From contig JAFGCJ010000003.1 of assembly GCA_016932785.1 (NCBI GenBank), positions 40,971-104,970 on the forward strand: 64,000 nt of DNA. The letters run 5' to 3'. This document shows, one piece after another, positions 12,765 through 61,851 of this stretch (its first letter is position 1; each line of letters starts with the position of its first letter). The notes under the pieces are model-generated. The model was not told the origin of the DNA, did no database searches, and worked only from the letters and a program-made list of their open reading frames with translations. Made by a program: the position numbers and the translations under genes. This DNA comes from Candidatus Dojkabacteria bacterium (lineage in GTDB: Bacteria > Patescibacteriota > Dojkabacteria > SC72 > JAFGCJ01).

Positions 12765-12855
<91 letters not shown>

Positions 12856-36472: not shown

Positions 36473-36997
36473 CTAGCTAAAAGACCCAACTTTTTCCCAC
36501 ATTCCATCATCTTCGCAGGAATACAAATCAAACCCTTTTACCTTCCAACTAACCTCATACTCAATCTTCTCCATTTGCTGTTTTACAGCCAGGAACTTCT
36601 TTATCGGCATCCGCTTATCTATCATGACGTGAGGAACAAATTCGCTGCGAAAAAGCTGACCCGGACCATAGCCACGGCGTGCATTGTCGTCTTCAAGCAA
36701 GTTTCGAAACCGTAGGTAAAGCTGGGTCAGCATATTACTCGGAACAACCTTCAAAATAATGATTCCTCTTTTCCTGGACCAAAAATCCAAACCAGAGATT
36801 ACAGCTTTAAAAGCATTAAACTTGATTTGGGAAATCTTCTCTATAAGTATCTCCTCAGCATAGTCTACTTTAAACGGAGGAACCATTGTTATATGAGGCT
36901 CAAGGACACGCTCTTGTTTCAGGCTGTACTTTTCACGAAGTCCTAAAACAAAAGCCTTGGTTTCCTCAGGAATATCAAGAGTTATTAGATACTGCAT
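36473..36997 (-). CDS. 2H phosphoesterase superfamily (LigT / 2'-5' RNA ligase-like)
   Basis: 174 aa. The first H-x-T motif is EPHITMVPPF. The second is non-canonical, FVPHVMIDKR (H-x-M). Confidence 0.6.
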   Translation of the reverse strand: MQYLITLDIPEETKAFVLGLREKYSLKQERVLEPHITMVPPFKVDYAEEILIEKISQIKFNAFKAVISGLDFWSRKRGIIILKVVPSNMLTQLYLRFRNLLEDDNARRGYGPGQLFRSEFVPHVMIDKRMPIKKFLAVKQQMEKIEYEVSWKVKGFDLYSCEDDGMWEKVGSFS

Positions 36998-43217: not shown

Positions 43218-44372
43218 ATGCCAATTCGAAGCAAGCTAAACAATTTTCTAAAGAGATTTGAAAGAAAATTTCAAACGCTCAATCTCATTGAAATATCAAG
43301 ATCAAATCTTCTTCACAACTATGATCTTTTTTCATCGCTACTACCCGGATACTCAATATTTCCTGTATTAAAGGCAAATGCTTACGGCCACGGAATAGCC
43401 CAGATAACAGAGATCCTCAAAGAAAGGCAGCCTGATTATTTCATAGTGGATGGATACTTCGAAGCATTGAGGGTATGGGAAATATCCAAGCAACCAGTCC
43501 TCCTAATAGGTTATGTGCACCCCTCAAACCTAAAAGATCTAGACTTCCATAATCTTGCCTTAACTGTCTATGACATGGAAACGATTAAAGAGCTTGAACG
43601 TCTGGGAAGAAAAGTTCGAATCCATCTTAAAATTGATACCGGGATGAATCGCCAAGGCATAGAAAACAAAGACATCCCGCACTTTATTAAAGAAATCAAC
43701 AAAGCGCAAAACCTTGAACTAGAAGGTGTTCTCTCACACCTTGCTGATGCCGATTCAACAGACAACTCATATACCCAGAAACAACTCGAGTATTACAGAA
43801 AAGCCCACAAAATTGTCGAGGAAATGAGCGGAGAAATTCGGCACTCACACCTTTCCGCCTCCGCCGGAGCAATCAAGACGAAGGACCCAACTACAAACTC
43901 GGTCAGAATTGGAATGGGACTCTATGGAATAAACCCATATGAACCAAAAGACCCTTTCTACAAAAAACTCGAAGATTTAAAGCCTGTTCTGACACTCAAA
44001 TCCACAATCATCCACACAAAGGAAATCAAAAAGGGAGACGCCGTTAGCTACAACTGTACATTCAAGGCCAAAAGAAAAACCAGAATTGGCCTTCTTCCAC
44101 TTGGATACTACGAAGGAATACCTAGAAACCTTAGTAACAAGGGCTTTGTTAGATGGGAAAAAAAATATCTGCCGATAATCGGAAGGGTATGTATGAACCT
44201 CACAATAGTAGACCTTACCGACACCGCGGCAAAGAAATTCGACAAGATTACAGTCGTAAGCCCCGTCGCTTCAGACAAAAATTCAATACAAAGCATCGCT
44301 AACCAAAGCGCAACAATACCTGACGATATCTTCGTCCACTTAAATGAAAACATTAGAAGAGCGATCTCCTAA
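43218..44372 (+). CDS. alr: alanine racemase
   Basis: 384 aa. PVLKANAYGHG (PLP Lys), HLKIDTGMNRQG, GLLPLGYYEGIPR, IGRVCMN. Confidence 0.9.
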   Translation: MPIRSKLNNFLKRFERKFQTLNLIEISRSNLLHNYDLFSSLLPGYSIFPVLKANAYGHGIAQITEILKERQPDYFIVDGYFEALRVWEISKQPVLLIGYVHPSNLKDLDFHNLALTVYDMETIKELERLGRKVRIHLKIDTGMNRQGIENKDIPHFIKEINKAQNLELEGVLSHLADADSTDNSYTQKQLEYYRKAHKIVEEMSGEIRHSHLSASAGAIKTKDPTTNSVRIGMGLYGINPYEPKDPFYKKLEDLKPVLTLKSTIIHTKEIKKGDAVSYNCTFKAKRKTRIGLLPLGYYEGIPRNLSNKGFVRWEKKYLPIIGRVCMNLTIVDLTDTAAKKFDKITVVSPVASDKNSIQSIANQSATIPDDIFVHLNENIRRAIS

Positions 44373-45325
44373 CAAGGAAGCTCCATTATCGATGGCACTT
44401 TCTCCAGAATTTCACAGTCAAACCCACCAAAAATATCCCCATACCCATCAATCGCTTCTTTTACCCCTTGTTTAAATTCACCCTTCATTAAAACCCCGGC
44501 AATACTGTCCACTTCTAACCCATTAGTTCCACCAATCATTATCCCCCAATTCTCAATAGGAATTGCCTTTTTCACATCCCAATCCATCTCACAGGCAGTG
44601 TATATTCCATCAACGACAACCCGCAAATCGAATAACGATTGATATATTCTGTGAACATCAAGAATGCTGCGACCCAGATACTCATCATTTTCGCCATGAT
44701 AAGTAGCAATACGATGCGGATCTGGAATCAGCCCAAATAGATTCTTGATTCCAAGAGAAAGTCCATAGAAAGTATCTCTCTTAGCCTTGGCCAGACTTAC
44801 AAGGTTCGATCCCTTAAGATCAAAGAGTTTCTTAGGAACATAACCGTACATCTCCGGAAGACGCACAGGGCCATACTTCCTCTCCACCATGTCCTTAATT
44901 TCTTCTTTATCAGCAACATTACCCTCCCAAACCTCGTTGGTAATATTGACATACTCCACATCATGTTTTTCCAGAACCTTATCTATACCTTCGCTTTCAA
45001 GAAACCACTTATCCTGTTTTTTAAAATGATCCCAATGTTGACGCCCGGCCTCAAGGCCTGCTTCCTTTGATGAAAAATAGTCTCCAGATCCATCCTTGAT
45101 CTTATCGGTACGCCAGAAAGTGTAACTCTCAATGATCGTGGCCGGTTTGTTCAATGCCGTAAGGAACATGTCAAGGACATCGGCCTCAATATGACTTGCA
45201 CGCATGCCATCGACCCAATTAGGCTTTATCAAAACATGGTCACTCGTAATATCAAGACCCCGAACAAGGCTGTCCATATCTTTTTGATCGGAAATCTCGA
45301 GAATGGTTGTTGTGCCAATTACCAT
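44369..45325 (-). CDS. DUF362-like protein
   Basis: 318 aa. HVLIKPNWV resembles the DUF362 N-terminal motif. Otherwise unassigned. Confidence 0.45.
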   Translation of the reverse strand: MVIGTTTILEISDQKDMDSLVRGLDITSDHVLIKPNWVDGMRASHIEADVLDMFLTALNKPATIIESYTFWRTDKIKDGSGDYFSSKEAGLEAGRQHWDHFKKQDKWFLESEGIDKVLEKHDVEYVNITNEVWEGNVADKEEIKDMVERKYGPVRLPEMYGYVPKKLFDLKGSNLVSLAKAKRDTFYGLSLGIKNLFGLIPDPHRIATYHGENDEYLGRSILDVHRIYQSLFDLRVVVDGIYTACEMDWDVKKAIPIENWGIMIGGTNGLEVDSIAGVLMKGEFKQGVKEAIDGYGDIFGGFDCEILEKVPSIMELPC

Positions 45326-45397
45326 ATACTCATTTTACCACCCACTAACTTATAGTCAAATGCTACAAAAAGTAAAATATCCGAGGCAAAATATGAA

Positions 45398-46801
45398 TCA
45401 ATCCTTTCTCTTAACCAACATGAATGTCGTGATGTTCTCACTGTCATCCTGGAGATCTTTGTCTACAACTTCAAGATCAAATAAATCGCTCAATCCTTCA
45501 GGGCCAAGAATGGCAACATTTGTAGAAATCAGACCCTTCGAAAGAGCTCTAGCCGCCGCAGCTGTATCAATAAGATCATGCTTTCCGCTTTTTTGTTTCA
45601 GATCAGGATATTTTTTTCTAAGGGTCTCCTCACACTGCTTCAATACCTGTGGATGGGCCATTATAGTATCTATACTAGCCCAATCAGTTTCTCGCCTTTT
45701 CATCAGGAAGTGCCTAATTGGAGTAGGAATTTCCTCAACAATATCAAAAGTATAGTCGGATATTGCATCTACCGATTCTTTCACAATTCCTCCAGCCTTA
45801 TTGAAAATCGCAAACAGCCCGAAGTCTATACTCCCCACATGAAGGTTCCTGAGAACAGATTCTGTCGTATAAAGGTATTTGAGTTTATAATCCTTGATCC
45901 CGCGATCAGCGGTATATTTCGTTATCACCTGATGGTTAAAACTTCCCACCCCGCCCTGTATTCCATAAACAACAAAGTTTGGATCTATCCTTTCGGGCAG
46001 AAGTTTGTTGTAGATACTGTCGTACGCATTTCCAAGCCTTATTCTCATCTGCTTCGTATATGAATTGTAATTCTGAAGATTCAAGAAAAGTTCCCAGGTA
46101 TCATTAATGGTAAATTCTTTAATCCTATGTAAATATTGTGTTCCTACTGTATCAATAGGTGTTTCATCAAATCCAAATTCATTAAGAAGTCTACCGATAA
46201 AATGCGTCACACCCATTGAATTTGCAGCAATTCTGTCATGGTCTTTTGCTGAGAACTCCTCGATACGAATTCCCTTACTCTTAAAATAGTTTTTCCAGAA
46301 TGCATACTCATTCTTAGTTGCCACAAATCTATCCATTACAAGAGGAAGACCCTCGAACCCATCTTTTGAACTGTCCGGCCCAAACATTGGATGAGTAAGT
46401 ATTGCCCTTGCCCTTGTACCCTTAAGATACTTCTCAAAGACTCTTTTGGGATGTTCCTTGACCGAACAAGTATCAATCAGCAGATTATCACAGAAGAAAC
46501 GTTTATGCTTCGAAATTACTTCCTCAAAAGAGGCTATAGAAATACAATAAATTACAACGTCAGCATTATAAATTTCTTTCTCACTCGCAGCGATTTCAGT
46601 TTCCTTCCCAATCTCAATTTCATCATATCGCTCTTTGGATCTATTAAATAAAATTAGAGGAAAGTCATCCTTGAGCATCCGGTATATAACCTTTCCAAAC
46701 CTCCCAAGCCCAACAATGGCAACGACTGGCTTGGAGGATTTTTTCTTTTTACTCAGTTTCTTTCGAGTTTTTCGGGTAGTTTTAGCTCCTTTTTTTTGCA
46801 T
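45398..46801 (-). CDS. fusion of prephenate dehydrogenase (TyrA-like) and prephenate dehydratase (PheA-like), no ACT domain
   Basis: 467 aa. The N-terminal half is VAIVGLGRFGKVIYRML (Rossmann fold) ...ILTHPMFGP. The C-terminal half is VVYGIQGGVGSFNHQV, SIDFGLFAIFNKAGGIVKESVD, MAHPQVLKQCE, NITTFMLV (TRF-like). Confidence 0.7.
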   Translation of the reverse strand: MQKKGAKTTRKTRKKLSKKKKSSKPVVAIVGLGRFGKVIYRMLKDDFPLILFNRSKERYDEIEIGKETEIAASEKEIYNADVVIYCISIASFEEVISKHKRFFCDNLLIDTCSVKEHPKRVFEKYLKGTRARAILTHPMFGPDSSKDGFEGLPLVMDRFVATKNEYAFWKNYFKSKGIRIEEFSAKDHDRIAANSMGVTHFIGRLLNEFGFDETPIDTVGTQYLHRIKEFTINDTWELFLNLQNYNSYTKQMRIRLGNAYDSIYNKLLPERIDPNFVVYGIQGGVGSFNHQVITKYTADRGIKDYKLKYLYTTESVLRNLHVGSIDFGLFAIFNKAGGIVKESVDAISDYTFDIVEEIPTPIRHFLMKRRETDWASIDTIMAHPQVLKQCEETLRKKYPDLKQKSGKHDLIDTAAAARALSKGLISTNVAILGPEGLSDLFDLEVVDKDLQDDSENITTFMLVKRKD

Positions 46802-47542
46802 TTATGTGCTGTAAATTTTATAGATTCGATTCATGAGTATACCAAAGTCCTCAGTGGATATCGTTTGGTCCCTATCAACCTGTTCAACCTCGGGGTCTAC
46901 ACTGGTCTCAACAATAATACCGTCGGCACCTGCCGCGATTCCTGCGCAAGCAAGATGACCCACCATATCTCTCCTTCCAGCGGTATGAGATGGATCTACA
47001 ATAACCGGGACACCGTAGTCGTGCTTGGCCACAAGCATGGCATTAAGATCCAACGTGAACCTCATAGCATCAGCACCAGTTCTCACCCCTCTCTCGCAAA
47101 GTATCACTTTATCCAGACCCATATAGGTAGCCGCTCCTAACCATTCCTTTATCGTAGAGATAAATCCACGCTTAAGAATCACAGGCCGAGGATCCTCACC
47201 TATCTTCTTCAATAATTCGAAATTCTGCATATTCCGAGACCCCACCCAAAGTATATCGGACACATCTCTAACCAAATCAACTTGCTGAGAGTCCTGAATT
47301 TCTACGGTTACAAGAAGTCCAGTCTTTTCTTTTATCTCCATCAGCCACTTTAGGCCTTTATCCCCAACACCTTGAAAAGAATCCGGACATGTTCTAGCCT
47401 TCCATAAGCCAGCGCGGAAAACCTGCGCCCCCATTTTCTTTACCTCGTATGCTGTTTTCAACAATTCCTCCCTTGAAGACGCAGAGCATGGACCAGCAAT
47501 AACAAGAGGTTTATTTTCCAGTAAGTTATCTCTTGTAATCAT
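46802..47542 (-). CDS. aroF: 3-deoxy-7-phosphoheptulonate (DAHP) synthase, type I-beta (KDO8P-synthase-like)
   Basis: 246 aa. LVIAGPCSASS, VFRAGLWKARTCPDSFQG, WVGSRNMQNFELLK, VILKRG, ILCERGVRT, VIVDPSHTAGRRD. Confidence 0.85.
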   Translation of the reverse strand: MITRDNLLENKPLVIAGPCSASSREELLKTAYEVKKMGAQVFRAGLWKARTCPDSFQGVGDKGLKWLMEIKEKTGLLVTVEIQDSQQVDLVRDVSDILWVGSRNMQNFELLKKIGEDPRPVILKRGFISTIKEWLGAATYMGLDKVILCERGVRTGADAMRFTLDLNAMLVAKHDYGVPVIVDPSHTAGRRDMVGHLACAGIAAGADGIIVETSVDPEVEQVDRDQTISTEDFGILMNRIYKIYST

Positions 47543-47560
47543 CTTATTAAAAATAAAAAT

Positions 47561-47854
47561 TTATTCTTTAGAAATGTTCTCTTCTAAATCCAGGGCATAT
47601 GAATGCATCAGCTCCCAAATTTGCCTTACAATCTCACCCTTAAGACCAAGCATCTCTGCTTTGGAGATCCTAGAGTTAATAACTTGATCCCACCTGTTCT
47701 CATCAAGAGGGGGAATATCATTCCGTGCTTTATATTCACCAATCTTTGCTACTAGCTTCATCCTTTTGGAAATAAGAACTATCAGCTGTTCATCAACTTC
47801 ATCTATTGCCTGCCTAAGATAATTTAGATTTTTGTCATTTGGTACTTTTTCCAT
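47561..47854 (-). CDS. AroQ-class chorismate mutase
   Basis: 97 aa. LRQAIDEVDEQLIVLISKRMKLVAKIGEYK...DENRWDQVI. Confidence 0.85.
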   Translation of the reverse strand: MEKVPNDKNLNYLRQAIDEVDEQLIVLISKRMKLVAKIGEYKARNDIPPLDENRWDQVINSRISKAEMLGLKGEIVRQIWELMHSYALDLEENISKE

Positions 47855-49061: not shown

Positions 49062-49139
49062 AACTTATATACGTATTAACTGTTGATTATATTCAAAAAT
49101 TCTTTTAAAATAAACCAATTTAAATACGTACATACGTAT

Positions 49140-49703
49140 ATGAAAGTATTCTACACAGCATCGTACTACGGTAAAGAAAAATATCAAAAATATTACGACA
49201 AGGTCCTTTCGGCAATCGAGGAGACAAAGGTTGATCTTATATCTCCTGAAAAAGGAAACTACATGAACATTCTGAAGCCTCACGATAAAGACAAAATCAA
49301 GGATAAATTACTGCTCCACTACAAAGCCATAAAACAAGGTATCCTATGGTCCGATGCTGTAATTATCGAAATTAGCAATGAAGATTTTCAGCTTGGACAC
49401 GAGGCTACACTTGCTATCCAGAATAAGAAACCCGTCCTATGCTTATCTATACACGAAGATTTTGGAAAGAAAATTAAGAGCAGATTCTTTTTCGGTTCAA
49501 AATACAATCAATACAACATAAAGTTTATTGTTCAAGAATTTATTAATAGAGTGAGAAAAGGAGTTCTTACCGAAAGGTTTAACTTTTTCCTTTCTCCCGC
49601 CCAACTTCAACACCTAAAAATCTCCTCACAAAAAACAGGTATTACAAAATCAGAGTACTTACGAAGCCTGATTGAAAAAGATCTCATGCTCCAGAAACAC
49701 TAG
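49140..49703 (+). CDS. nucleoside 2-deoxyribosyltransferase-like domain fused to a C-terminal ribbon-helix-helix
   Basis: The ORF track starts at 49083, but the likely start is ATG 49140 (MKVFYTASYYGK...). An NDT-like layout follows (SDAVIIEISNEDFQLGHEATLAIQNKKPVLCL). The C-terminus ERFNFFLSPAQLQHLKISSQKTGITKSEYLRSLIEKDL is a CopG/RHH pattern. Confidence 0.45.
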   Translation: MKVFYTASYYGKEKYQKYYDKVLSAIEETKVDLISPEKGNYMNILKPHDKDKIKDKLLLHYKAIKQGILWSDAVIIEISNEDFQLGHEATLAIQNKKPVLCLSIHEDFGKKIKSRFFFGSKYNQYNIKFIVQEFINRVRKGVLTERFNFFLSPAQLQHLKISSQKTGITKSEYLRSLIEKDLMLQKH

Positions 49704-49770: not shown

Positions 49771-50859
49771 ATGTCAGGATGCATAAAAGCCTTCCGCTGG
49801 ACCATTTCTGTTTTCCTAATACTACTAATTATTCCAACAATAACCATCGGTGTGCCTCTAGTATCTGTTTCAACCTACCTTGCAAACCGGGAAACCCCCA
49901 AGAGATGGCTCAAAGAGATCGAACTTTACGATAATGCCTTGGATATAGCTCTGGATGTACTTGAAAAACAAAAGGAAGGCTCATACTTTATTGATTTAAA
50001 GGACAGAATAGATGATGAAGATAGCGACGTAAGTGAGGCCGTTCACAGACTGGCAGATCCGGATTTCCTTGAGGAAAGCATAGAAACTGTGATAGATGCC
50101 TACTACGATTGGTTCGAAGGCGAAACAGATAAACCTGAATACAGTATACCCATAGCTGAGGACAAGGAGACACTGGTGGTACTTCTCTCAGCAGGTTTTA
50201 AGGAAAAGGTCAGAGGTCTTCCTGTTTGCGAAGAAGGATTCGTCATCACCGATGATTTCAACCCGATTGAGACAGAATGCCAACCTGAAGGATATGACTT
50301 CGATGAAATCACAAGATACCTGGAGGACAACGCTGACTCGGATGAATTCGAGGAACTTCTCAGCAAAGCAAACATTTCTTCTGACGAAATAGAATTAAGT
50401 GACGAGACAACTGAGCAGGCACAACTTCTATACAATAAAATCAAAATCTATCCAATAATATTCCTGTCAGGAACTATTATTCTTGTGCTCTTATTAATAC
50501 TACTAATTCCTGGTGTCAAAACATCCTTCATGACTACAGGGATTGTACTTATCGTTTCATCAGTGTTTACTACCATAACCGGCTTGATAATAAAGATCAT
50601 TATCAACTTTGGATCGCAAAAAGGACTCGATGAAATCAAAGACAAAAATTATGAGGAGCTCGAAAAAATACTTGGAGAGCTAATTAGAGTAGTATCGGCA
50701 GATATAACAAGGAGAACCCTACTCATAGCGCTTACAATTCTTGTCATAGGAGTACTTTTGACAATAATCGGCGCGGTTATAAAAAAAAAGAAGGATAACG
50801 CGGGAGAAGACTCCACTAAGCCTTCGAAAAGTGAAGAGAAAAAAGCAGACAAGAGTTAG
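49771..50859 (+). CDS. hypothetical polytopic membrane protein with acidic ectodomain
   Basis: 362 aa with about 4 TM helices and a Lys-rich tail. Confidence 0.6.
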   Translation: MSGCIKAFRWTISVFLILLIIPTITIGVPLVSVSTYLANRETPKRWLKEIELYDNALDIALDVLEKQKEGSYFIDLKDRIDDEDSDVSEAVHRLADPDFLEESIETVIDAYYDWFEGETDKPEYSIPIAEDKETLVVLLSAGFKEKVRGLPVCEEGFVITDDFNPIETECQPEGYDFDEITRYLEDNADSDEFEELLSKANISSDEIELSDETTEQAQLLYNKIKIYPIIFLSGTIILVLLLILLIPGVKTSFMTTGIVLIVSSVFTTITGLIIKIIINFGSQKGLDEIKDKNYEELEKILGELIRVVSADITRRTLLIALTILVIGVLLTIIGAVIKKKKDNAGEDSTKPSKSEEKKADKS

Positions 50860-51524
50860 CCCAAAATCTCCACTCCGCCGAATATAGCATCCCCGTCTAT
50901 TGTCAGCACGGGAAGTTTCTTATCATTTCTACTTGTAAACTTATCCTCCCATGCACCAAGTGCCGCCGATCCAAGAGATACTACTCTACACTTATCCGGT
51001 ACCCATATTTTTACTCCTCCAAAAATAGCCGACACATCAATTTTGGCACCAGACTTAGAGATTTTCGCGCTTCTAAGATCCAGTTCAACAGCACCAAATA
51101 CAGCCGAAACATCACCCCCTTTATAGTTTTCAGACACTATATTCTTCTTAACACCGGTACAAACAGCCGAGGCCTCAACGCTTTCTCTATCTACAGCGTC
51201 AGACGAAACACCTTTATACTTAAAGACATCACCCAGCAGAATTGAAAGCCCAAGGAAAATAATTATGGAAGGCCAGAGCACCGTCCAAAAGCTCCAACCA
51301 AACCAAGCGGATACCGTAAACAAAAAGCCGAAGAAGATGATCCAAAGGCCCGTCATTGTGTTCCCCTTAATTAGAATGGATGTCCCCAAAACAATCACCA
51401 ACAAAGGCCATATTTTCCCCAAAAGCCCTCCCCCGGCAAAGCCCAAAGATTCCAGAAGAAGAACACTGCCTACAATTACAACTATTGCACCAAAAATCGG
51501 CCTTCTACTACCTTTACCCTTCAT
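50856..51524 (-). CDS. LiaF-like / toastrack-domain membrane protein
   Basis: 222 aa. The N-terminal 4-TM block resembles the LiaI-LiaF type. The C-terminal repeats are AVFGAVELDL, AIFGGVKIWVP, AIFGGVEILG. Confidence 0.6.
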   Translation of the reverse strand: MKGKGSRRPIFGAIVVIVGSVLLLESLGFAGGGLLGKIWPLLVIVLGTSILIKGNTMTGLWIIFFGFLFTVSAWFGWSFWTVLWPSIIIFLGLSILLGDVFKYKGVSSDAVDRESVEASAVCTGVKKNIVSENYKGGDVSAVFGAVELDLRSAKISKSGAKIDVSAIFGGVKIWVPDKCRVVSLGSAALGAWEDKFTSRNDKKLPVLTIDGDAIFGGVEILG

Positions 51525-51574
51525 GAATAATTTTGTTAAATTTAGTTACTGGAGAAGCCTTCTTTAGAGAAATA

Positions 51575-52786
51575 CTAGTCCCTCTTTATGACAAAGCTCC
51601 CCACTCCGACATCAACAGTAATTTCTATCCGATGCTCGGCATCATTATAGTTATCAGACTCATAGGTTTTACTGTCTCCTCCTATACCGGAAATCTTCTT
51701 CCCCGGCATATTAATTGAACCAACCCCCAACTCGTAATTCAAATTGAAGCCAACCCCTTCTGGAATCACAAGGATCATTGATCCTGCTCCAACTTCTACT
51801 TTGACCTCACCTTCGGGCACTGTATCCCCCACCATCTTGACCTCCAGACTACCAGCACCTACATCTAGATCCATCGAATCAATAACCAAATCATCCAGCA
51901 CAACCTCAAGCACACCGGCTCCAACATCTATCTTGAGATCTTCCAAAGTTACTTCGTTAAGATCTATTTTGCCCTTTCCAGCGCCAAGATCAATGTCTAA
52001 TCTTGTTTTAACATCTGGCATCCCAAGAACAAAATCATAACTTGGTCCCCTCGACGGAATATCCCACAGACCAGACGGGCCATCAGTACTGAACGAAATC
52101 TCAAGAGATCTTTCTTTCAGCTTTTCTGTAATATTGGGCTCCCCAAAATTGTCAAAATATTTAGCATCAAGAAACATATAATTGCTACTATCGTCGTCTT
52201 TTATCGTAAACTCTGCAGCGTCTAGATCAAGCTTCAACGTCCTGCTGTCAATATTTTCGTCTTCATATTCAATTCTATACGTTTGGGATTCACTCTTCCC
52301 AACGTACAACGTCACATTTTCACTTAAGCTGTTAAGCCAGGATGGAACAGAAAAGTTGATTCTATCAAGAAAATCATGACCAGATATAACAAATGAAACC
52401 GCGACAATGAGAGAAAAAACTGAAAAAGCCAACAAACCCGAAACACATCCGCCAAGCTTCGATCTGCCAAATATCAGCTGAATACCCCAAATCACAATAA
52501 ATACAGGCCAGAATCGCCAAAGTATGCCCCAGACACCCCAGGATAACAGACCTGTTGTATTTAGCAGTAGAATAACACCCACAAATATCCAAAATACCGC
52601 CCAAACAAAACGCCCACCGTCATATCTCTTTTCATCGTAACGTCGAAAAACACTTTCACTTTTTTCCACAGATGGCTCAGAACCTTTTACAACATCTTCC
52701 TGAACCTTCTTCTCCTTTATCTTAACCGGACTCGAGCTTTTACTTTTGCTCTTACTTTTACCTGATTTTCCCTTAGAACGTGCCAT
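51575..52786 (-). CDS. toastrack (DUF4097/LiaF-like) membrane protein
   Basis: 403 aa. Lys/Ser-rich N-terminus, 4 TM helices, then five (D/E)-(L/V)-G-(A/V)-G beta-repeats (IDLGAGKG, IDVGAGVL, LDVGAGSL, VEVGAGSM, YELGVGSI). Confidence 0.6.
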   Translation of the reverse strand: MARSKGKSGKSKSKSKSSSPVKIKEKKVQEDVVKGSEPSVEKSESVFRRYDEKRYDGGRFVWAVFWIFVGVILLLNTTGLLSWGVWGILWRFWPVFIVIWGIQLIFGRSKLGGCVSGLLAFSVFSLIVAVSFVISGHDFLDRINFSVPSWLNSLSENVTLYVGKSESQTYRIEYEDENIDSRTLKLDLDAAEFTIKDDDSSNYMFLDAKYFDNFGEPNITEKLKERSLEISFSTDGPSGLWDIPSRGPSYDFVLGMPDVKTRLDIDLGAGKGKIDLNEVTLEDLKIDVGAGVLEVVLDDLVIDSMDLDVGAGSLEVKMVGDTVPEGEVKVEVGAGSMILVIPEGVGFNLNYELGVGSINMPGKKISGIGGDSKTYESDNYNDAEHRIEITVDVGVGSFVIKRD

Positions 52787-52842
52787 AGCAGTATTCTGAC
52801 AAATTAGTACACCACCTCATCGACTTCCCAATTAGACAAGGG

Positions 52843-53073
52843 CTATTTCTCTCCAACTTTTGTTGCTCCTTTAACGTCAGACTCAGTCGGGATAACAATC
52901 CAAAGGATAATATAAACTAATATTCCTGACCCACCAAACAACACAACAAGAACCCATATGATCCTAACAATTGTAGGATCAACATCGAAATACTCACCTA
53001 TACCACCACACACTCCAGCAATCATTCGATTACTCTCTGAACGATATATCCTTTTATTTTCTTTAGACATCAA
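52843..53073 (-). CDS. pspC: PspC-domain protein
   Basis: 76 aa. RIYRSESNRMIAGVCGGIGEYFDVDPTIVRIIWVLVVLF. Confidence 0.85.
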   Translation of the reverse strand: MMSKENKRIYRSESNRMIAGVCGGIGEYFDVDPTIVRIIWVLVVLFGGSGILVYIILWIVIPTESDVKGATKVGEK

Positions 53074-53208
53074 GCTATTGGCTAATAAATAAATTAGAAG
53101 AACAACATAATTTCATTTTACCAAAAATGCTCACAGTCACCAATATTTAAGGGAAAAACATTCAAAATCGAAGCGGTCTTCACCGACTTACTGTTTTACC
53201 CAGAAAGA

Positions 53209-54345
53209 CTATTTAAGCATGTAACCACGCCCATGAACAGTCTTAATAAGATCACCCTCCACCCCAAGACTTCTTAACTTCTTCCTCAGCCTCTTTATTA
53301 ACTGTGTAATAGCCCAATCCGAGTAGTTCTCTAGACTTTCACCAGGCCAAATAGCTTCCGCAATTTGCTCTTTACTTACAAGCTTTCCCCTCATTTTTGC
53401 CAGTAACGTCACAGCGTTATACTCGGCCGGAGAAAAAGAATGAACAACGCTTACTCCCTCAACAAAAAGGTCTCCAGTATTTGGATCAAACGCAAAATTC
53501 TTCTTTCCATCGAGCCTAGAGACAATATCCTGTACTACGGCATTCTTATTCAAAAACTCCATAAGATCTACATCCTCCGGCCTATTCTCCAGCGACATTG
53601 CCGCATACTTAATCAAGTATGGATATCCTCTACTAACTTTTTTGATAGCTTCCTGCTCATCCCTCGTAAATTTCTTATCGAGGATATAGCCCCACCTGGT
53701 AACAAGATAATCGACATCCCGAGAAGGAAGCGATCCAAACTCAACAATGTTTTCCTTCATAAGATCCCTTATCAAAGCAAATTTCTCGCTATTCATCTGG
53801 TAAGGAGCTTCTTCATAGACGAGAAACAAAAATCGTACACGTGAAGGATTCATATCAGCCTCCCTAAGAGACCTAATATTCCCCCACATAAACTTATAAG
53901 CAAACTCCAAGAACCCAATACCTCGCAAAACAAATATGATCTCATACTTCTTCTGACACTTTGATACTTCTCTTCGCACCTCATCAAGAAGCTCGGAATA
54001 TGAAGAAAATGCTTTTGGTTTTCTCCCTGGACAGCATTTTTCCAGTAATTTCCGGTATATAAGGTTCATGTAGGAATGCTTGCTGTCTTCCGACATTTCA
54101 TTGGGATCAATTATGATTATCTTCTGGTCGTTCGTAGAAATGTTTACTTTATTTGACTTGGCAAGCTTATCGACCTCAGAGACCAAAAAGCGTATAAGTG
54201 ATATGCCCCCGCCAAAACGATACGCAACTCGCACGGTAACATTGTGACCAGATGCTAGTGGCCTGAATATCTTCCTAAAAATGTCGTTTGTCGTCTTCTC
54301 TGTCAGGGGGTAGTAATATTTTGAATTTCTCGAAATTCTTTTCAC
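53209..54345 (-). CDS. OmpR/PhoB-type winged-helix DNA-binding protein with an N-terminal degenerate NTPase-like domain (no receiver domain)
   Basis: 378 aa. The C-terminus is FSPAEYNAVTLLAKMRGKLVSKEQIAEAIW...ITQLIKRLRKKL...IKTVHGRGYMLK. The N-terminal ~270 aa are alpha/beta, with AYRFGGGISLI where a P-loop would sit. Confidence 0.65.
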   Translation of the reverse strand: MKRISRNSKYYYPLTEKTTNDIFRKIFRPLASGHNVTVRVAYRFGGGISLIRFLVSEVDKLAKSNKVNISTNDQKIIIIDPNEMSEDSKHSYMNLIYRKLLEKCCPGRKPKAFSSYSELLDEVRREVSKCQKKYEIIFVLRGIGFLEFAYKFMWGNIRSLREADMNPSRVRFLFLVYEEAPYQMNSEKFALIRDLMKENIVEFGSLPSRDVDYLVTRWGYILDKKFTRDEQEAIKKVSRGYPYLIKYAAMSLENRPEDVDLMEFLNKNAVVQDIVSRLDGKKNFAFDPNTGDLFVEGVSVVHSFSPAEYNAVTLLAKMRGKLVSKEQIAEAIWPGESLENYSDWAITQLIKRLRKKLRSLGVEGDLIKTVHGRGYMLK

Positions 54346-54589
54346 AAGCGGAATTATACCAATTTCTTGATTTGCGGGCAGCTCTGGTCGAATACTAAAT
54401 TCCGCTGTAACGGGGTTCGACCTTATTTAAGTCTAAATATTTCTGCGTACTAACTCTCTATTTGCTAACGATCAGCGCCAAAACAATGATGCCAATCGTA
54501 AGAATCATAGGTGCACGATTAAATAATAAAATTAAAAATTTTCCGGGCATCTAGATATATTTAAAATTTATTTATAGTCTAATAATAAA

Positions 54590-55048
54590 TTAGCTAATTT
54601 CAACAACGCTGTACTCAATGTTCCCTGAGGGTGTCTTAACAATAACCTTATCGCCTACTCTTTTTCCCATTATGGAACTACCCAAGGGTGAAACTTCCGA
54701 TAATCTTCCCTTTGATGGGTTTGCCTCAATTTCCTCCACAAGTTGAAAACTGTGACAAATTCTATGATTCACCAGTTTGACCTGGGATCCGACTATGACC
54801 TTAGATGAACTAACAGAGTGATTGACTGAGGCATTGGTTATTACAGCATTTATCTGAGCCAGTTCATTGATTAAATCGAGTCTTTCCTGACGAAGCTGCC
54901 CAAACGTATAGTCCTCCATGGTACTTTCTCCAAGCGAAGATTCTTGAATAAGGTCTTCCACTTCAATGATCCTATCTTCAATCGACTTCTTTCTAAGTTT
55001 TAACTCATGAAGGCCAGTACTCGTTAAATTGTATTTCTGCTCGGTCAT
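54590..55048 (-). CDS. greA: transcription elongation factor GreA
   Basis: 152 aa. N-terminal coiled coil and C-terminal VSPLGSSIMGKRVGDKVIVKTPSGNIEYSVVEI. Confidence 0.85.
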   Translation of the reverse strand: MTEQKYNLTSTGLHELKLRKKSIEDRIIEVEDLIQESSLGESTMEDYTFGQLRQERLDLINELAQINAVITNASVNHSVSSSKVIVGSQVKLVNHRICHSFQLVEEIEANPSKGRLSEVSPLGSSIMGKRVGDKVIVKTPSGNIEYSVVEIS

Positions 55049-55252: not shown

Positions 55253-56338
55253 TCAACAACAAATATAAGGCTCTATCTTATTAATTTGGACGCGCTGATT
55301 ATGTAATTCAAAGATCGATCTAATACATGATGATGATCTTTGACTGATCACCTTCTTCGCTGTCACAGGCCCCATCCCGGGCACCCTCAGTAATCTCCAG
55401 TATGAAGCGGTGTTGATATTAACCGGAAAGAACTCCGGATGATTCTGTGCCCAAATAGTCTTCGGATCAACATCGTCAAATAGATTACCATCAGAACCCA
55501 AAGGTATATCTTTTGGCCTAAATCGATAGAATCTCATGAGAAAATCAACCTGATAAAGTCTGTGCTCTCTGGTCAATGAGGCAGGAGGCATATCCTCAAG
55601 AGGAGTACCGTGAACAGGCCGAAACGCCGAATAAAAAACCCTCGACAGCCCAAAATTCTTATACAAAAAAGATGTTGAATTAATAATGTCCCGATCACGC
55701 TCCTCACCGGCTCCAACAACAAACTGGGTAGTTATACTCGGTACCTTTTCCCCAAGTCTTTTTTGTTTCCTTATCTCATCCTTAATCAAAGACATAGTAT
55801 GATAAAAACCGCTTCTGAGATCCTTGCACGGAGAAAGTCGAGTTAGGTCCTCCTCGGTCGGAGCTTCAATATTAAGGGATACACGACTAGCAAGTCGTAT
55901 AGCCTCACTAATACAGCTAGAAGAAGTTCTTGGCATAATCTTTAAATGAAGATAGCCCCTATAACTCATCTTATCACGAAGAATATGTGCTGTATCAAGC
56001 ATTCTGGTCATCGTGGAGTCAGGACTACCATCAAGGCCCGATGATAGAAAAAGTCCATCCACAAGCCGCCTCGAATATGCAGACTCAAAGGCTGTTGCCA
56101 TCTCATCTGATGTAGCAACAGCTCTAGTAGTCGAACGATCCCTACGAAACGCACAGTAATTACAGCTGTTAACACACTCGTTAGTCTGCAAAACCTTGAA
56201 TAACCGGCACACCCTGCTGCCTCCAACTTTGGCGTGATACACACCAGGAATATCGGTAGTTGTACCAAAGTCTTTTGGACCACAAGTGTCATACTGTGCA
56301 CTCGGACCTAAAATTGAAATCTTCTTATACAAATCCAT
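55253..56338 (-). CDS. radical SAM protein with C-terminal helix-hairpin-helix (putative DNA modification/repair family)
   Basis: 361 aa. CVNSCNYCAF (CxxxCxxC). The C-terminus is LLRVPGMGPVTAKKVI (HhH). Confidence 0.7.
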   Translation of the reverse strand: MDLYKKISILGPSAQYDTCGPKDFGTTTDIPGVYHAKVGGSRVCRLFKVLQTNECVNSCNYCAFRRDRSTTRAVATSDEMATAFESAYSRRLVDGLFLSSGLDGSPDSTMTRMLDTAHILRDKMSYRGYLHLKIMPRTSSSCISEAIRLASRVSLNIEAPTEEDLTRLSPCKDLRSGFYHTMSLIKDEIRKQKRLGEKVPSITTQFVVGAGEERDRDIINSTSFLYKNFGLSRVFYSAFRPVHGTPLEDMPPASLTREHRLYQVDFLMRFYRFRPKDIPLGSDGNLFDDVDPKTIWAQNHPEFFPVNINTASYWRLLRVPGMGPVTAKKVISQRSSSCIRSIFELHNQRVQINKIEPYICC

Positions 56339-57094: not shown

Positions 57095-58513
57095 CTAGCA
57101 CTTAACTACCACCACAGGCCTCAATCTTACAACCTTTTTTGCAATCCCAGCACTATCCACGACATCGACTACATTATGTATATCTTTATACGACTCTGGA
57201 GCCTCCTCAATAAATCCTCGAGTCGAGCCAGACACTACGACAATACCTAACTCTCTCATACGTTTCAGTAACTCCTGAGGTTGAACGGTCATTCTTGCCT
57301 TCCGGCGAGACATGCTACGCCCAGCACCGTGACACGTTGAACCAAAAGTCTTCTCCATTGCAGTCTCTTGCCCAACAAGTACATATGAAGATGTTGCCAT
57401 AGTTCCAGGAATTAGGACTGTCTGACCAGGGAAAGAACGAGTTGCGCCCTTTCTGTGAACAATAAGTTTTTTCTTTTTGCCATCAACTTCATACTCCTCT
57501 ATCTTCGCAATGTTGTGAGCAATATCATAAACAAGATTTAATCGGTCACTCCCTCCTCCAAATACCTGGTCCCATGCCTGACGTAACTCCCACATTATAA
57601 ACTGTCTATTACACCAAGCAAAATTAGCACCGGCACACATAGCTCTCCAGTATTGCTGTCCCTCCTCTGAACTCAGCGGCACACAGGCTAACTCCCGATC
57701 CGGCAATTCTATTCCATATTTAGACATCGCTTTCATGTGCAGCCTGACATAGTCAGTCGCTATCTGGTGCCCCAAACCCCTCGACCCTGTATGAATCAAG
57801 GAAACCACCTGATTCTCATAAAGGCCCATTTTCTCAGCGTTCTTATCGTCAAACACCTTATCGACATAGCAAACATCCAGAAAGTGATTACCTGCACCTA
57901 AAGTTCCGAGCTGATCTTTACCCCTTTTTTTGGCATTTAGCGAGACATCTCTAGGATCCGCATCGCTCAGAACCCCGCCGGACTCGGTATGATCAAGATC
58001 ATCCTCAGTAGCATAGCCTTTCTTTACAATCTCCGGAACCCCATTTTTTAATACGTCATCCATATCACTACCCTTAAACGTAATCCTTCCGCCCTTGCCC
58101 ACTCCCGAAGGGACCCATTCAGATATAGCCTGAGCAAGATCCTCAAGTTTATCTTTTACATCATTAAAACTCTTATCTGTCCCAACCAGCCGCACTCCAC
58201 AATTAATATCATAACCTATACCACCCGGTGAAATAACACCATCCTTAATGTCAAAAGCCGCAACACCTCCAACCGGAAATCCATAGCCTTGATGGACATC
58301 AGGCATGGCAAGAGCATATTTTTGTATACCGGGAAGTGTTGTCATATTAACGAGCTGCCACATGGATTTATCACCAAGAACGGAATCTATCATTTCCTCA
58401 GAGGTATACACCTGAGCAGGAACCCTCATGTCCTTCCTAAAGGATTTTGGAATTTCCCACAGCCAATCTTCCATTTTTCTTAAATCTGATCTTTGTGGCA
58501 CTACTTGATCCAT
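57095..58513 (-). CDS. rtcB: RNA 3'-phosphate/5'-OH ligase RtcB
   Basis: 472 aa. MPDVHQGYGFPVG, GYDINCG, GAGNHF, HTGSRGLGHQ, CHGAGR. Confidence 0.93.
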   Translation of the reverse strand: MDQVVPQRSDLRKMEDWLWEIPKSFRKDMRVPAQVYTSEEMIDSVLGDKSMWQLVNMTTLPGIQKYALAMPDVHQGYGFPVGGVAAFDIKDGVISPGGIGYDINCGVRLVGTDKSFNDVKDKLEDLAQAISEWVPSGVGKGGRITFKGSDMDDVLKNGVPEIVKKGYATEDDLDHTESGGVLSDADPRDVSLNAKKRGKDQLGTLGAGNHFLDVCYVDKVFDDKNAEKMGLYENQVVSLIHTGSRGLGHQIATDYVRLHMKAMSKYGIELPDRELACVPLSSEEGQQYWRAMCAGANFAWCNRQFIMWELRQAWDQVFGGGSDRLNLVYDIAHNIAKIEEYEVDGKKKKLIVHRKGATRSFPGQTVLIPGTMATSSYVLVGQETAMEKTFGSTCHGAGRSMSRRKARMTVQPQELLKRMRELGIVVVSGSTRGFIEEAPESYKDIHNVVDVVDSAGIAKKVVRLRPVVVVKC

Positions 58514-58555: not shown

Positions 58556-58960
58556 TTATATATCGAAGATTATTTTTGTACTCCATTTACCATCCTTATC
58601 CTGAACGACATCGGCTTCATGATATGTAACTGCTTTTATGTCCTCTGAAAAGGTCTCAATTGGACGACCTGCAAGTACCACCTCTACACGGTTTTCATTC
58701 ATAAATTGGATCTTCTCGACTTCATAGTACTCATTATTAATCTCAGACAACGCCAGTACTTCACTCAAAAAATCTATAAGCAAAGCTGTTAGATCTATTG
58801 AGCCTATGGAAACCGTACGGTTTGTGGACTTATCGCCTTTCTTTTCCGGACCCATAATTTCAACCATTGCATCAAGAGAATCACAAAACAAAGACTCAAG
58901 AGAATCTGCCTCAACAAGGACTTCAACATCAGCGGTGTGTTCAAGGCGTTTGTACGACAT
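58556..58960 (-). CDS. archease (RtcB activator)
   Basis: The ORF track starts at 58993. The likely start is MSYKRLEHTADVEVLVEA... (E-H-T-A-D archease N-terminus). Confidence 0.85.
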   Translation of the reverse strand: MSYKRLEHTADVEVLVEADSLESLFCDSLDAMVEIMGPEKKGDKSTNRTVSIGSIDLTALLIDFLSEVLALSEINNEYYEVEKIQFMNENRVEVVLAGRPIETFSEDIKAVTYHEADVVQDKDGKWSTKIIFDI

Positions 58961-59049
58961 ACTAATACCATGGTAACAGAACGCTGAGCACAATTCTATA
59001 ATGACAGAATAGAATTGACACAGTTACCATCAACGCCTAAACTTTAAAT

Positions 59050-59784: not shown

Positions 59785-59829
59785 AATAGAATTGAGTTAC
59801 CTGGGCACATTATACCATTATAGAATATA

Positions 59830-61794: not shown

Positions 61795-61851
61795 AAGAAT
61801 ATTATACCAAGAGGGAAGGATACTTATCTATCGGGGTTGCTACTATCTCTT

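What the first reader, a model, noticed from the sequence alone, without database searches (positions are those of the whole stretch)
50856..54345. PspC plus two toastrack/LiaF-like membrane proteins headed by a receiver-less winged-helix protein with a dead NTPase-like domain
Four co-oriented genes make up the cluster.

The 378-aa regulator has an OmpR/PhoB-type C-terminal wHTH (…IKTVHGRGYMLK). In place of a receiver domain it has a ~270-aa alpha/beta N-terminal domain, with AYRFGGGISLI at the P-loop position.

PspC (76 aa) follows.

Next is a 403-aa protein with 4 TM helices and five (D/E)(L/V)G(A/V)G beta-repeats.

Last is a 222-aa LiaF-like protein with three A(V/I)FGG(V) repeats.

PspC with toastrack domains is a known envelope-stress association. 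Here no histidine kinase, LiaR/S or PspA/F is present. The signal route to the wHTH protein is therefore unexplained and possibly direct, through membrane partner sequestration.
Basis: partly seen in the sequence, partly recalled or inferred. Interest (0 to 1): 0.55.

Follow-up and report, generated by a model that had tools for sequence, protein, structure and literature searches.

The report
PspC–Toastrack module beside unrelated pseudo-ATPase regulator
The four genes are real and correctly identified, but comparison with related genomes shows they are two separate units that sit side by side only in this Dojkabacteria genome: an ordinary PspC/LiaF-like membrane module, and an uncharacterised regulator whose ATPase-like sensor domain has lost its catalytic motifs.

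Summary
Observation confirmed. Four co-oriented minus-strand genes in a Candidatus Dojkabacteria (CPR) window encode:
- a 378-aa Trans_reg_C protein;
- a 76-aa PspC;
- two LiaI-LiaF-TM + Toastrack proteins (403 and 222 aa).

No histidine kinase, receiver, PspA or PspF is found among the 59 ORFs scanned across the 64 kb (nearly all of at least 120 aa).

The regulator's N-domain folds like Orc1/Cdc6- or STAND-type AAA+ proteins. It belongs to a family of about 207 cluster representatives of "STAND-like NTPase + C-terminal OmpR wHTH". Distant members keep canonical Walker A/B motifs. This clade has AYRFGGGIS and IIFVLRG instead, so "dead NTPase" is right.

The functional reading is not supported. 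In 0 of 32 loci encoding relatives of the regulator is a PspC or LiaF-like gene nearby. In 6 of the 8 close-clade loci the regulator follows greA, with its own TATAAT-type promoter 7–9 nt from the start codon. The PspC/LiaF-like module recurs in four other gene contexts with no transcription-factor domain detected next to it, and pspC has its own promoter-like element.

Best reading: chance juxtaposition of a known-type PspA-free PspC/Toastrack module and a separate one-component regulator. The pseudo-ATPase regulator family itself is mildly novel.

The parts
54590..55048 (-). greA (152 aa). It is the neighbour immediately upstream of the regulator in 6 of the 8 close-clade loci.
   Evidence: Pfam GreA_GreB E=2.6e-18 and NCBIfam GreA. 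A GreA homolog lies immediately upstream of the regulator in L001, L002, L004, L007, L008 and L009.
54353..54361 (-). Extended -10 element TGGTATAAT, 7 nt before the regulator's GTG start. It is the regulator's own promoter, and the mRNA is probably leaderless.
   Evidence: TGGTAWAAT occurs 8 times in the window against 1.58 expected, and 0 of 100 shuffles reach 8. The same T(G/T)NTATAAT lies 7-9 nt before the start codon in L001, L002, L004, L007, L008 and L009.
53500..54345 (-). Regulator N-domain (residues 1-282): an AAA+/STAND-like base plus helical lid, catalytically degenerate (a pseudo-NTPase).
   Evidence: AF2 model with pLDDT 84. Foldseek hits: Orc1/Cdc6 2v1u (E=2e-9), archaeal AAA+ 2fna and 2qen, and CED-4 2a5y. 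A profile search finds 207 cluster representatives, including members with intact Walker A/B motifs. Those members match AAA_22, AAA_16, NACHT and nSTAND1.
54199..54225 (-). Walker A remnant AYRFGGGIS (residues 41-49). The Lys and Ser/Thr of GxxxxGK[ST] are missing.
   Evidence: In the family alignment this segment aligns with GxxGxGK[ST] of P0163, P0176, P0180, P0185, P0197, P0201, P0219 and P0220. In the model it sits between strand 36-40 and helix 47-56.
53920..53940 (-). Walker B remnant IIFVLRG (residues 136-142). Arg-Gly replaces the acidic residues.
   Evidence: It aligns with hhhhD(E) of distant members and with GEFDEL of the intermediate clade. R141 and G142 are nearly invariant in the close clade.
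53209..53499 (-). Regulator C-terminal OmpR/PhoB-type winged helix (residues 283-378, plus the stop codon).
   Evidence: Pfam Trans_reg_C, 60.7 bits. PDB sequence hits to response-regulator and ToxR DNA-binding domains.
53115..53123 (-). Extended -10-like element TGGTAAAAT, 42 nt before the pspC start. It is a candidate separate promoter for the pspC module.
   Evidence: Motif enrichment. Sequence. It lies in the 135-nt gap between the regulator's stop codon and pspC.
52843..53073 (-). PspC-domain membrane protein (76 aa, one TM helix).
   Evidence: PF04024, 101.8 bits. It falls below the equivalog cut-off for E. coli-type PspC, at 63 bits against 104. Homologs of 54-58% identity precede LiaF-like genes in L013-L016 and L041.
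51575..52786 (-). 403-aa LiaI-LiaF-TM + Toastrack protein. It has a disordered K/S-rich N-tail, a TM bundle at about residues 58-135, and a beta-helix at 165-403.
   Evidence: Pfam. AF2 model with pLDDT 81. Foldseek hits to 4qrk (E=1.2e-13, TM-score 0.71 normalised by target length) and 4opw, the Toastrack reference structures (PMC11237479). 60 homologs.
50856..51524 (-). 222-aa LiaI-LiaF-TM + short Toastrack paralog.
   Evidence: Pfam. Homologs of 38-40% identity sit in the same position after the long paralog in L011-L016.
49771..50859 (+). Convergent 362-aa 4-TM protein. It is listed as context and is not claimed as part of the module.
   Evidence: A 35%-identical homolog occupies the same convergent position after the LiaF-like gene in L010. 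It is absent from the other module contexts.

Best explanation
The interval contains two independent genetic units that are adjacent only in this genome.

Unit 1 is pspC plus two LiaI-LiaF-TM/Toastrack genes. It is a PspA-free, kinase-free membrane module that recurs in Dojkabacteria and other Patescibacteria. By analogy with the described PspC/Toastrack systems, the small PspC protein and the 4-TM bundles would sense membrane perturbation. The cytoplasmic Toastrack beta-helices would provide a sub-membrane docking surface. This step is inferred, not shown. The module appears to be transcribed from its own extended -10 promoter.

Unit 2 is a one-component transcription factor. Its OmpR-type winged helix is driven not by a phospho-receiver but by a STAND/AAA+-derived domain that has lost its Walker A lysine and Walker B acidic residues. 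That domain most likely acts as a ligand-binding or oligomerisation scaffold that sets the wHTH dimer or oligomer state. This is also inferred. The gene has its own conserved promoter, giving a probably leaderless mRNA, and in 6 of the 8 close-clade loci it follows greA.

Nothing ties the regulator specifically to the Psp/Lia genes.
For: - Domains and folds.
- Regulator family and the gradient of P-loop decay. Whole-library E-values to members with intact Walker motifs run from 7e-14 to 7e-7.
- Synteny of the regulator: 8 close-clade loci and 24 intermediate-clade loci contain no PspC or LiaF-like ORF by tblastn or HMM. greA lies upstream in 6 of the 8 close loci.
- Module contexts without this regulator, and with no transcription-factor domain detected in any adjacent gene: L013-L016 (cupredoxin <> PspC-336-224 >< UDG), L011/L012 (99 aa-366-222), L010 (404 alone) and L041-L043 (164 aa TM-PspC-411).
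- L010 shares the window's far-side synteny (tm362 homolog, CM_2, PDH/PDT, TrmB, 2-Hacid_dh) but lacks greA and the regulator.
- Separate promoter-like elements: TGGTAWAAT is about 5-fold enriched, and 7 of its 8 copies precede minus-strand genes or a tRNA.
- A PspC + LiaF-TM fusion protein (P0025) supports a functional PspC-LiaF link inside unit 1.
- The literature places PspA-free PspC/LiaI-LiaF-TM/Toastrack neighbourhoods as a known theme (PMC11237479).
Against: - The four genes are co-oriented with short gaps (135, 56 and 50 nt), and no convincing intrinsic terminator follows the regulator. Read-through co-transcription and locally acquired regulation therefore cannot be excluded.
- Only 8 close-clade loci could be examined, and several sit on short contigs.
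- The regulator's target sites are unknown.
- Only 64 kb of the genome is visible, so the real regulator of the module (if any) is unidentified.
- The biochemical roles of the Toastrack and pseudo-ATPase domains are inferred from homology alone.
Confidence: 0.7

Rival explanations
1. The regulator heads a four-gene envelope-stress operon. Its N-domain is held or released by the cytoplasmic Toastrack/PspC surfaces (partner sequestration), giving a kinase-free signalling route to the wHTH.
For: - Adjacency, co-orientation and a 135-nt gap without a clear terminator.
- No kinase, receiver, PspA or PspF in the window.
- Toastrack has been proposed as a docking platform that can couple to diverse transcription factors (PMC11237479).
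- A pseudo-ATPase domain is a plausible protein-interaction module.
Against: - 0 of 32 regulator-family loci have Psp/Lia neighbours.
- The module occurs in four other contexts without this regulator and with no transcription-factor domain detected next to it.
- The boundary coincides with a synteny break.
- Each unit has its own promoter-like element.
- The two promoter regions share no operator-like motif beyond AT-rich chance.
Confidence: 0.12
2. The regulator is functionally coupled to greA, for example as a greA-regulator transcription unit or as a regulator acting on the greA region or on general transcription. On this reading the Psp/Lia genes are irrelevant to it.
For: greA lies immediately upstream and co-oriented in 6 of 8 close-clade loci and in the window.
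Against: - The adjacency is confined to one shallow clade (39-51% identity).
- It is replaced by an AF_1845-like gene in L003 and L005.
- It is absent from the intermediate clade, apart from one greA 3.6 kb away in L031. Inherited gene order explains it equally well.
- The regulator has its own promoter between the two genes.
Confidence: 0.15
3. The STAND-like wHTH protein is a remnant or component of an anti-phage or conflict system (Avs/nSTAND-like) rather than a housekeeping regulator.
For: Intact family members give weak hits to NACHT, nSTAND1, nSTAND2, nSTAND3 and nSTAND6 models.
Against: - No PADLOC hit for the window protein. There is only one marginal Avs2 hit, for P0219 (E=0.004), covering just the P-loop.
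- No effector domain.
- The protein is small (about 380 aa).
- It sits in a stable position next to housekeeping genes (greA, ribosomal protein S20), with no defence-island neighbours.
Confidence: 0.03

Closest known systems
PspA-free PspC / LiaI-LiaF-TM / Toastrack neighbourhoods (Ravi et al. 2024, PMC11237479), e.g. Bacillus subtilis yvlB (Toastrack) - yvlC (PspC)
   Same: - A stand-alone small PspC-domain gene sits next to genes encoding a 4-TM LiaI-LiaF-TM domain fused to a C-terminal Toastrack beta-helix.
- No pspA is present in the neighbourhood.
- The Toastrack fold matches 4QRK and 4OPW.
   Different: - Here there are two tandem LiaF-TM/Toastrack paralogs (403 and 222 aa).
- No two-component system, PadR/HAAS, LytTR, GntR or sigma-factor gene adjoins the module in any of the five contexts seen.
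- The host is a reduced CPR genome.
Bacillus subtilis LiaF (inhibitor of the LiaS kinase in LiaFSR) / Staphylococcus aureus VraT
   Same: The same two-domain architecture: an N-terminal LiaI-LiaF-TM bundle plus a C-terminal DUF2154/Toastrack domain.
   Different: - No LiaS/LiaR-type kinase or response regulator anywhere in the 64-kb window.
- Scores fall below the NCBIfam LiaF_C_term equivalog cut-off, at 34.3 and 21.6 bits against 57.
- These are therefore LiaF-like in architecture, not LiaF orthologs.
STAND / AAA+ NTPase-HTH transcription regulators (MalT/LAL family, AfsR/SARP) and Orc1/Cdc6-type AAA+ + winged-helix proteins
   Same: - A P-loop NTPase alpha/beta core plus helical lid, with a GxP-like motif (GYPYLIK), coupled to a DNA-binding winged helix.
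- The best structural matches are Orc1/Cdc6, the archaeal ATPases 2fna and 2qen, and CED-4.
- Distant family members hit AAA_16, AAA_22, NACHT and nSTAND1.
   Different: - The wHTH is OmpR/PhoB-type and C-terminal. In SARP/AfsR it is N-terminal with a BTAD domain, and MalT/LAL regulators use a LuxR-type HTH.
- There is no TPR or other sensor repeat array.
- Walker A and B are both lost in this clade, so nucleotide-driven switching is unlikely.
OmpR/PhoB-family response regulators
   Same: The C-terminal Trans_reg_C winged helix, including the conserved ...TVHGRGY... strand.
   Different: There is no receiver domain and no phospho-acceptor. The N-terminal 282 residues have an AAA+-like fold.

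Membership tests
PspC domain family (PF04024) | Match to the PspC domain model above Pfam's gathering score | tested here: met
   101.8 bits against a cut-off of 25, covering residues 7-64 and the whole model.
E. coli-type PspC (equivalog TIGR02978 / NF007973) | Score above the equivalog cut-off | tested here: not met
   63 bits against a cut-off of 104, and 48.5 against 136. The match covers only the first half of the model.
E. coli-type PspC (equivalog TIGR02978 / NF007973) | Genomic partnership with pspA/pspB | tested here: not met
   No PspA or PspB in the window.
LiaF (LiaFSR system) | N-terminal LiaI-LiaF-TM domain plus C-terminal DUF2154/LiaF-like_C domain | tested here: met
   Both proteins hit PF22570 and PF18917. 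Both hit PF09922 above its gathering score, at 33.5 and 30.1 bits against 29.
LiaF (LiaFSR system) | Equivalog-level similarity to the LiaF C-terminal domain | tested here: not met
   NF040535 scores 34.3 and 21.6 bits against a cut-off of 57.
LiaF (LiaFSR system) | Genetic linkage to a LiaS-type histidine kinase and a LiaR-type response regulator | tested here: not met
   No HisKA, HATPase_c or Response_reg hit in any of the 59 window ORFs scanned. None is adjacent in the four other module contexts.
Toastrack fold (DUF2154/DUF4097/DUF2807) | [quoted passage not shown] | tested here: met
   AF2 model of the 403-aa protein (pLDDT above 90 over most of residues 180-403). Foldseek hits to 4qrk (E=1.2e-13, target-normalised TM-score 0.71) and 4opw (E=7e-5). 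The 222-aa protein was not modelled.
OmpR/PhoB response regulators | C-terminal Trans_reg_C winged helix | tested here: met
   PF00486, 60.7 bits, residues 304-377.
OmpR/PhoB response regulators | N-terminal receiver (REC) domain with a phospho-acceptor Asp | tested here: not met
   No Response_reg hit. All NCBIfam response-regulator matches cover only the C-terminal ~90 residues. The N-domain has an AAA+-like fold.
STAND / AAA+ P-loop NTPases | P-loop NTPase alpha/beta core followed by a helical lid | tested here: met
   Foldseek probability 1.00 to Orc1/Cdc6, archaeal AAA+ ATPases, CED-4, RFC and RuvB. The profile search links it to members that hit AAA_22, AAA_16, NACHT and nSTAND1.
STAND / AAA+ P-loop NTPases | Walker A motif GxxxxGK[ST] | tested here: not met
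   AYRFGGGIS at the aligned position. The Lys and Ser/Thr are absent throughout the close clade.
STAND / AAA+ P-loop NTPases | Walker B motif hhhhD[DE] | tested here: not met
   IIFVLRG at the aligned position. R141-G142 is conserved in the clade.
STAND / AAA+ P-loop NTPases | Nucleotide binding or hydrolysis | not testable with these tools
   This needs biochemistry (ITC, DSF or an ATPase assay).
SARP / AfsR regulators | N-terminal OmpR-type wHTH followed by a BTAD domain | tested here: not met
   The wHTH is C-terminal and there is no BTAD hit.

The most novel reading that the evidence does not exclude
The P-loop-dead STAND-wHTH proteins could be an uncharacterised class of one-component regulators, so far seen in a Dojkabacteria genome and in unclassified metagenome contigs. 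In this class a fossil NTPase domain has become a pure ligand or protein sensor. In this particular Dojkabacteria lineage the regulator may have been newly recruited, by gene juxtaposition, to read out the cytoplasmic Toastrack platform of the PspC/LiaF-like module. That would be a kinase-free envelope-stress circuit caught at its origin.
Probability: 0.1. Interest if true: 0.65.

Novelty: new variant of a known kind. Interest (0 to 1): 0.3.

Why it matters
The practical message is cautionary. In compact CPR genomes, co-orientation and short gaps do not make an operon or a pathway, and a modest synteny survey dissolved an attractive signalling hypothesis.

Two smaller points have value.

First, this window, from a genome with little visible regulatory machinery, encodes a family of STAND-derived regulators with an OmpR-type winged helix. 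About 207 clusters at 50% identity were found. The family documents stepwise loss of the Walker motifs (GxxGxGK[ST]/hhhhD, then AGRR/GEFDEL, then FGGG/VLRG). That makes it a clean natural series for asking how an NTPase switch becomes a nucleotide-independent sensor or scaffold.

Second, the PspC + tandem LiaF-TM/Toastrack module persists in these reduced genomes with no kinase, PspA or transcription factor detected nearby. This suggests that the Toastrack/PspC proteins have an intrinsic membrane function that does not need a dedicated transcriptional output.

Tried and rejected
- A GTDB species-representative scan with the full-length regulator alignment gave only one locus, matching the wHTH alone (L006). 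It is uninformative for synteny.
- A metagenome scan with the all-clade N-domain alignment failed for lack of conserved stretches. With the close clade it found no confirmed relative. Only the intermediate clade gave loci.
- Generic sigma-70 and terminator consensus scans over 50.6-55.3 kb gave fewer hits than shuffles and none that was useful. RNA folding of the regulator-pspC spacer was no more stable than shuffles (z=-0.85).
- A search for shared k-mers or operator-like repeats between the regulator's upstream region and the pspC upstream region found only AT-rich matches within the shuffle range.
- The small ORFs downstream of the regulator in L007 and L008, and the 220-aa gene in L001, were tested as possible PspC/LiaF proteins. 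They are unrelated.
- The 99-aa gene ahead of the module in L011 is not a PspC.
- PADLOC gave no defence-system match.
- Rfam found only two tRNAs in the window and nothing in the intergenic regions of the cluster.
- A literature search for STAND NTPase + OmpR + winged helix returned nothing.
- Sequence-only search of the PDB detected only the wHTH. The N-domain needed structure prediction and a profile search.


Full report
**1. What is in the sequence**

The window is from a Candidatus Dojkabacteria (CPR/Patescibacteria) genome. The regulator is 100% identical to an NCBI protein of that name on a 171,676-bp contig.

Four co-oriented minus-strand ORFs occupy 50856-54345, exactly as reported. 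The gaps between them are 135, 56 and 50 nt.

Pfam and NCBIfam confirm every domain call:
- The 378-aa protein has Trans_reg_C at residues 304-377 (E=1.4e-16). There is no significant hit for residues 1-280, only faint AAA_35 and NACHT-associated matches.
- The 76-aa protein is a PspC-domain protein (PF04024, 101.8 bits). It scores below the equivalog cut-off for E. coli PspC.
- The 403-aa and 222-aa proteins both have LiaF-TM/LiaI-LiaF-like_TM1 and LiaF-like_C, just above Pfam's gathering score. Both are below NCBIfam's LiaF equivalog cut-off.

The repeats are real. The 222-aa protein has three A(V/I)FG(G/A)V units.

An AF2 model of the 403-aa protein (pLDDT 81) shows a disordered K/S-rich tail, a helical membrane bundle (about residues 58-135) and an all-beta solenoid (165-403). 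Its best PDB matches are 4QRK (E=1.2e-13) and 4OPW. These are the structures used to define the Toastrack domain (PMC11237479).

**2. The regulator's N-domain**

An AF2 model built on ten family members (pLDDT 84, pTM 0.68) gives an alpha/beta core, a helical lid and the C-terminal winged helix.

Foldseek against the PDB returns Orc1/Cdc6 (2v1u, 2qby), the archaeal AAA+ ATPases 2fna and 2qen, CED-4, RFC and RuvB, all at probability 1.00.

A profile of the N-domain alone, searched against 1.84 billion cluster representatives, finds 207 proteins at E<=1e-3 and 113 at E<=1e-10. Most are 350-460 aa. Nearly all of the 132 long enough to align (at least 300 aa) end in the OmpR-type ...(T/S)(V/I)(R/H)G(R/K)GY... 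strand.

The alignment shows a gradient:
- Distant members keep a canonical Walker A (e.g. GLPGSGKT, GLAGMGKS, GIGSVGKS) and Walker B (hhhhD). They hit AAA_22, AAA_16, NACHT, nSTAND1 and AAA_35 plus Trans_reg_C.
- An intermediate clade has AGRRxxNKF and GEFDEL.
- The window's clade has (R/K)FGG(G/A) and hh(V/I)(L/I)RG.

In the window protein, AYRFGGGIS (residues 41-49) and IIFVLRG (136-142) replace the two motifs. R141-G142 and F44-G45-G46 are conserved within the clade. A GxP-like lid motif, GYPYLIK, is retained.

It is a catalytically degenerate offshoot of a STAND-like NTPase + C-terminal OmpR-wHTH regulator family. PADLOC gives no defence-system match.

**3. Is the regulator linked to the Psp/Lia genes?**

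Eight close relatives (39-51% identity) were located on contigs.
- Six have greA immediately upstream and co-oriented (L001, L002, L004, L007, L008, L009). The L009 fragment is a GreA C-terminus.
- Two have an AF_1845-like gene upstream instead (L003, L005).
- Downstream there is a convergent gene (L002, L004, L009), an unrelated 220-aa protein (L001), or short low-complexity ORFs (L007, L008).

A further 24 loci of the intermediate clade were fetched from metagenomes.

HMMs built for PspC, the long LiaF-like protein and the short LiaF-like protein were run against six-frame ORFs of all loci. They hit only the window and the loci fetched through the LiaF-like protein itself. None of the 32 regulator loci is hit.

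Recurrent neighbours of the intermediate clade are an unknown 620-770-aa protein, a Na/Ca exchanger, an ATP-dependent DNA ligase and a Fic protein. None is related to Psp or Lia.

**4. The PspC/LiaF-like genes as their own module**

The 403-aa protein has 60 relatives, mostly 330-410 aa with the same architecture. One of them (P0025) is a PspC + LiaF-TM fusion.

Five distinct contexts were seen:
- The window: PspC-403-222.
- L013-L016, Dojkabacteria: divergent cupredoxin/Cu-ATPase, then PspC-336-224, then a convergent UDG.
- L011/L012: an unrelated 99-aa protein, then 366-222.
- L041-L043: a 164-aa TM protein, then PspC-411.
- L010: the 404-aa protein alone.

 None of the four non-window contexts has a transcription-factor domain detected in an adjacent gene.

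L010 encodes the closest homolog (44% identity). It shares the window's far-side gene order: the convergent tm362 homolog, chorismate mutase, PDH/PDT, TrmB and 2-hydroxyacid dehydrogenase. It has a peptidase M32 gene where the window has PspC, the regulator and greA. The regulator|pspC junction is therefore a synteny breakpoint.

**5. Promoters**

The generic consensus scan was uninformative. However, the extended -10 sequence TGGTAWAAT occurs 8 times in the window against 1.58 expected, and 0 of 100 shuffles reach 8.

Seven copies are on the minus strand, just upstream of:
- a tRNA-Ser gene (13 nt);
- the NYN gene;
- the DUF362 gene (6 nt);
- the EamA gene (6 nt);
- a small ORF with a Shine-Dalgarno sequence;
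- pspC (42 nt before its start);
- the regulator (7 nt before its GTG).

All six greA-linked relatives carry T(G/T)NTATAAT 7-9 nt before the regulator's start codon. This argues for a conserved private promoter and a leaderless mRNA.

So pspC and the regulator each have their own promoter-like element. Read-through cannot be excluded, because no convincing terminator follows the regulator. The two upstream regions share no motif beyond AT-rich chance.

**6. The rest of the window**

Pfam scans of 59 ORFs across the window, nearly all of those of at least 120 aa, found no HisKA/HATPase_c, Response_reg, PspA/Vipp1, PspB or sigma-54 activator.

Two ECF-type sigma factors are present:
- 13026-13646, overlapping a 589-aa gene.
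- 22072-22629, directly upstream of an 1823-aa alpha-2-macroglobulin.

These show that the genome has other envelope-type regulators, though nothing links them to the module.

**7. Interpretation**

The best-supported reading (about 0.7) is chance juxtaposition of two units.

(a) The first is a PspA-free, kinase-free PspC + tandem LiaI-LiaF-TM/Toastrack module of a kind already catalogued (PMC11237479). It would work as a membrane-embedded sensor or scaffold whose cytoplasmic beta-helices offer docking surfaces. The architecture, fold and module conservation are shown. The function is inferred by homology.

(b) The second is a one-component regulator in which a fossil STAND NTPase domain, rather than a receiver, controls an OmpR-type wHTH. 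It probably does so through ligand- or partner-dependent oligomerisation without nucleotide hydrolysis. The fold, family and motif loss are shown. The mechanism is inferred.

The rivals are:
- a functional greA-regulator coupling (about 0.15), which is not exclusive of the main reading;
- a defence-system origin (about 0.03).

**8. Novelty and score**

The Psp/Lia part is a new member of a known kind. The regulator is a new variant of a known kind: STAND/AAA+-HTH regulators, here with a C-terminal OmpR wHTH and both Walker motifs lost. It belongs to an uncharacterised family without a Pfam model for its N-domain.

The headline idea, a novel kinase-free envelope-stress pathway, is not supported. 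Overall interest is modest (0.3).

Noticed in passing
window 54353-54361, 45332-45340, 61801-61809 (all minus strand); also 12870-12878, 36405-36413, 53115-53123, 59809-59817: The extended -10 element TGGTAWAAT is about 5-fold enriched. In three cases it lies only 6-7 nt before the start codon (the regulator, the DUF362 gene at 44369-45325 and the EamA gene at 60940-61794). This implies leaderless mRNAs in this Dojkabacteria genome. Another copy lies 13 nt before tRNA-Ser (12764-12856). The same spacing is conserved before the regulator gene in six related loci.
   Followed up: partly
window 13026-13646 (+) with 13643-15412 (+); 22072-22629 (-) with 16599-22070 (-): There are two ECF-type sigma-70 genes. 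One overlaps a downstream 589-aa protein with a Glucodextran_B-like domain, which may be an anti-sigma or target gene. The other sits directly upstream of an 1823-aa bacterial alpha-2-macroglobulin.
   Followed up: no
window 49771-50859 (+); L010 8238-9362 (-): A 362-aa 4-TM protein with a large acidic loop converges on the 222-aa LiaF-like gene and overlaps it by 4 nt. A 35%-identical homolog lies in the same convergent position after the LiaF-like gene in L010. It has no Pfam family.
   Followed up: partly
window 57095-58513 and 58556-58993 (-); 36473-36997 (-): An RtcB RNA ligase sits next to its activator archease. A LigT-like 2'-5' RNA ligase lies elsewhere in the window. Together they form an RNA-repair gene set.
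   Followed up: no
window 55253-56338 (-): A radical-SAM protein of the 'rSAM_link_UDG' type (TIGR03916, E=5.6e-87, below its cut-off) with a C-terminal HhH lies just upstream of greA. No adjacent UDG-family partner is visible. In L013-L016 a UDG gene happens to flank the PspC/LiaF module.
   Followed up: no
window 49083-49703 (+): A 206-aa protein combines a weak nucleoside 2-deoxyribosyltransferase-like N-domain with a C-terminal ribbon-helix-helix (RHH_3). This is an unusual fusion.
   Followed up: no
window 464-835 and 1159-1521 (-): Two small T4SS-pilin-like proteins (PF18895).
   Followed up: no
window 45398-47854 (-): An aromatic amino-acid pathway cluster is present: fused prephenate dehydrogenase/dehydratase, DAHP synthase, and a 97-aa ORF that was not scanned but occupies the position of the chorismate mutase gene (CM_2) in the syntenic locus L010. 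This is notable in a CPR genome, which is usually biosynthetically poor.
   Followed up: no
L017-L037 (e.g. L025 9360-11645, L017 9307-11469): Intermediate-clade (AGRR/GEFDEL) STAND-wHTH regulators are flanked immediately downstream by a 620-770-aa protein with no Pfam match in 14 of 24 loci. The orientation is convergent in 8 loci and co-oriented in 6. This protein is a possible functional partner of that branch of the family.
   Followed up: partly
L003 2026-2550, L005 1903-2427: In the two most divergent close-clade loci the gene upstream of the regulator is a 174-aa AF_1845-like (PF27226) protein instead of greA.
   Followed up: no
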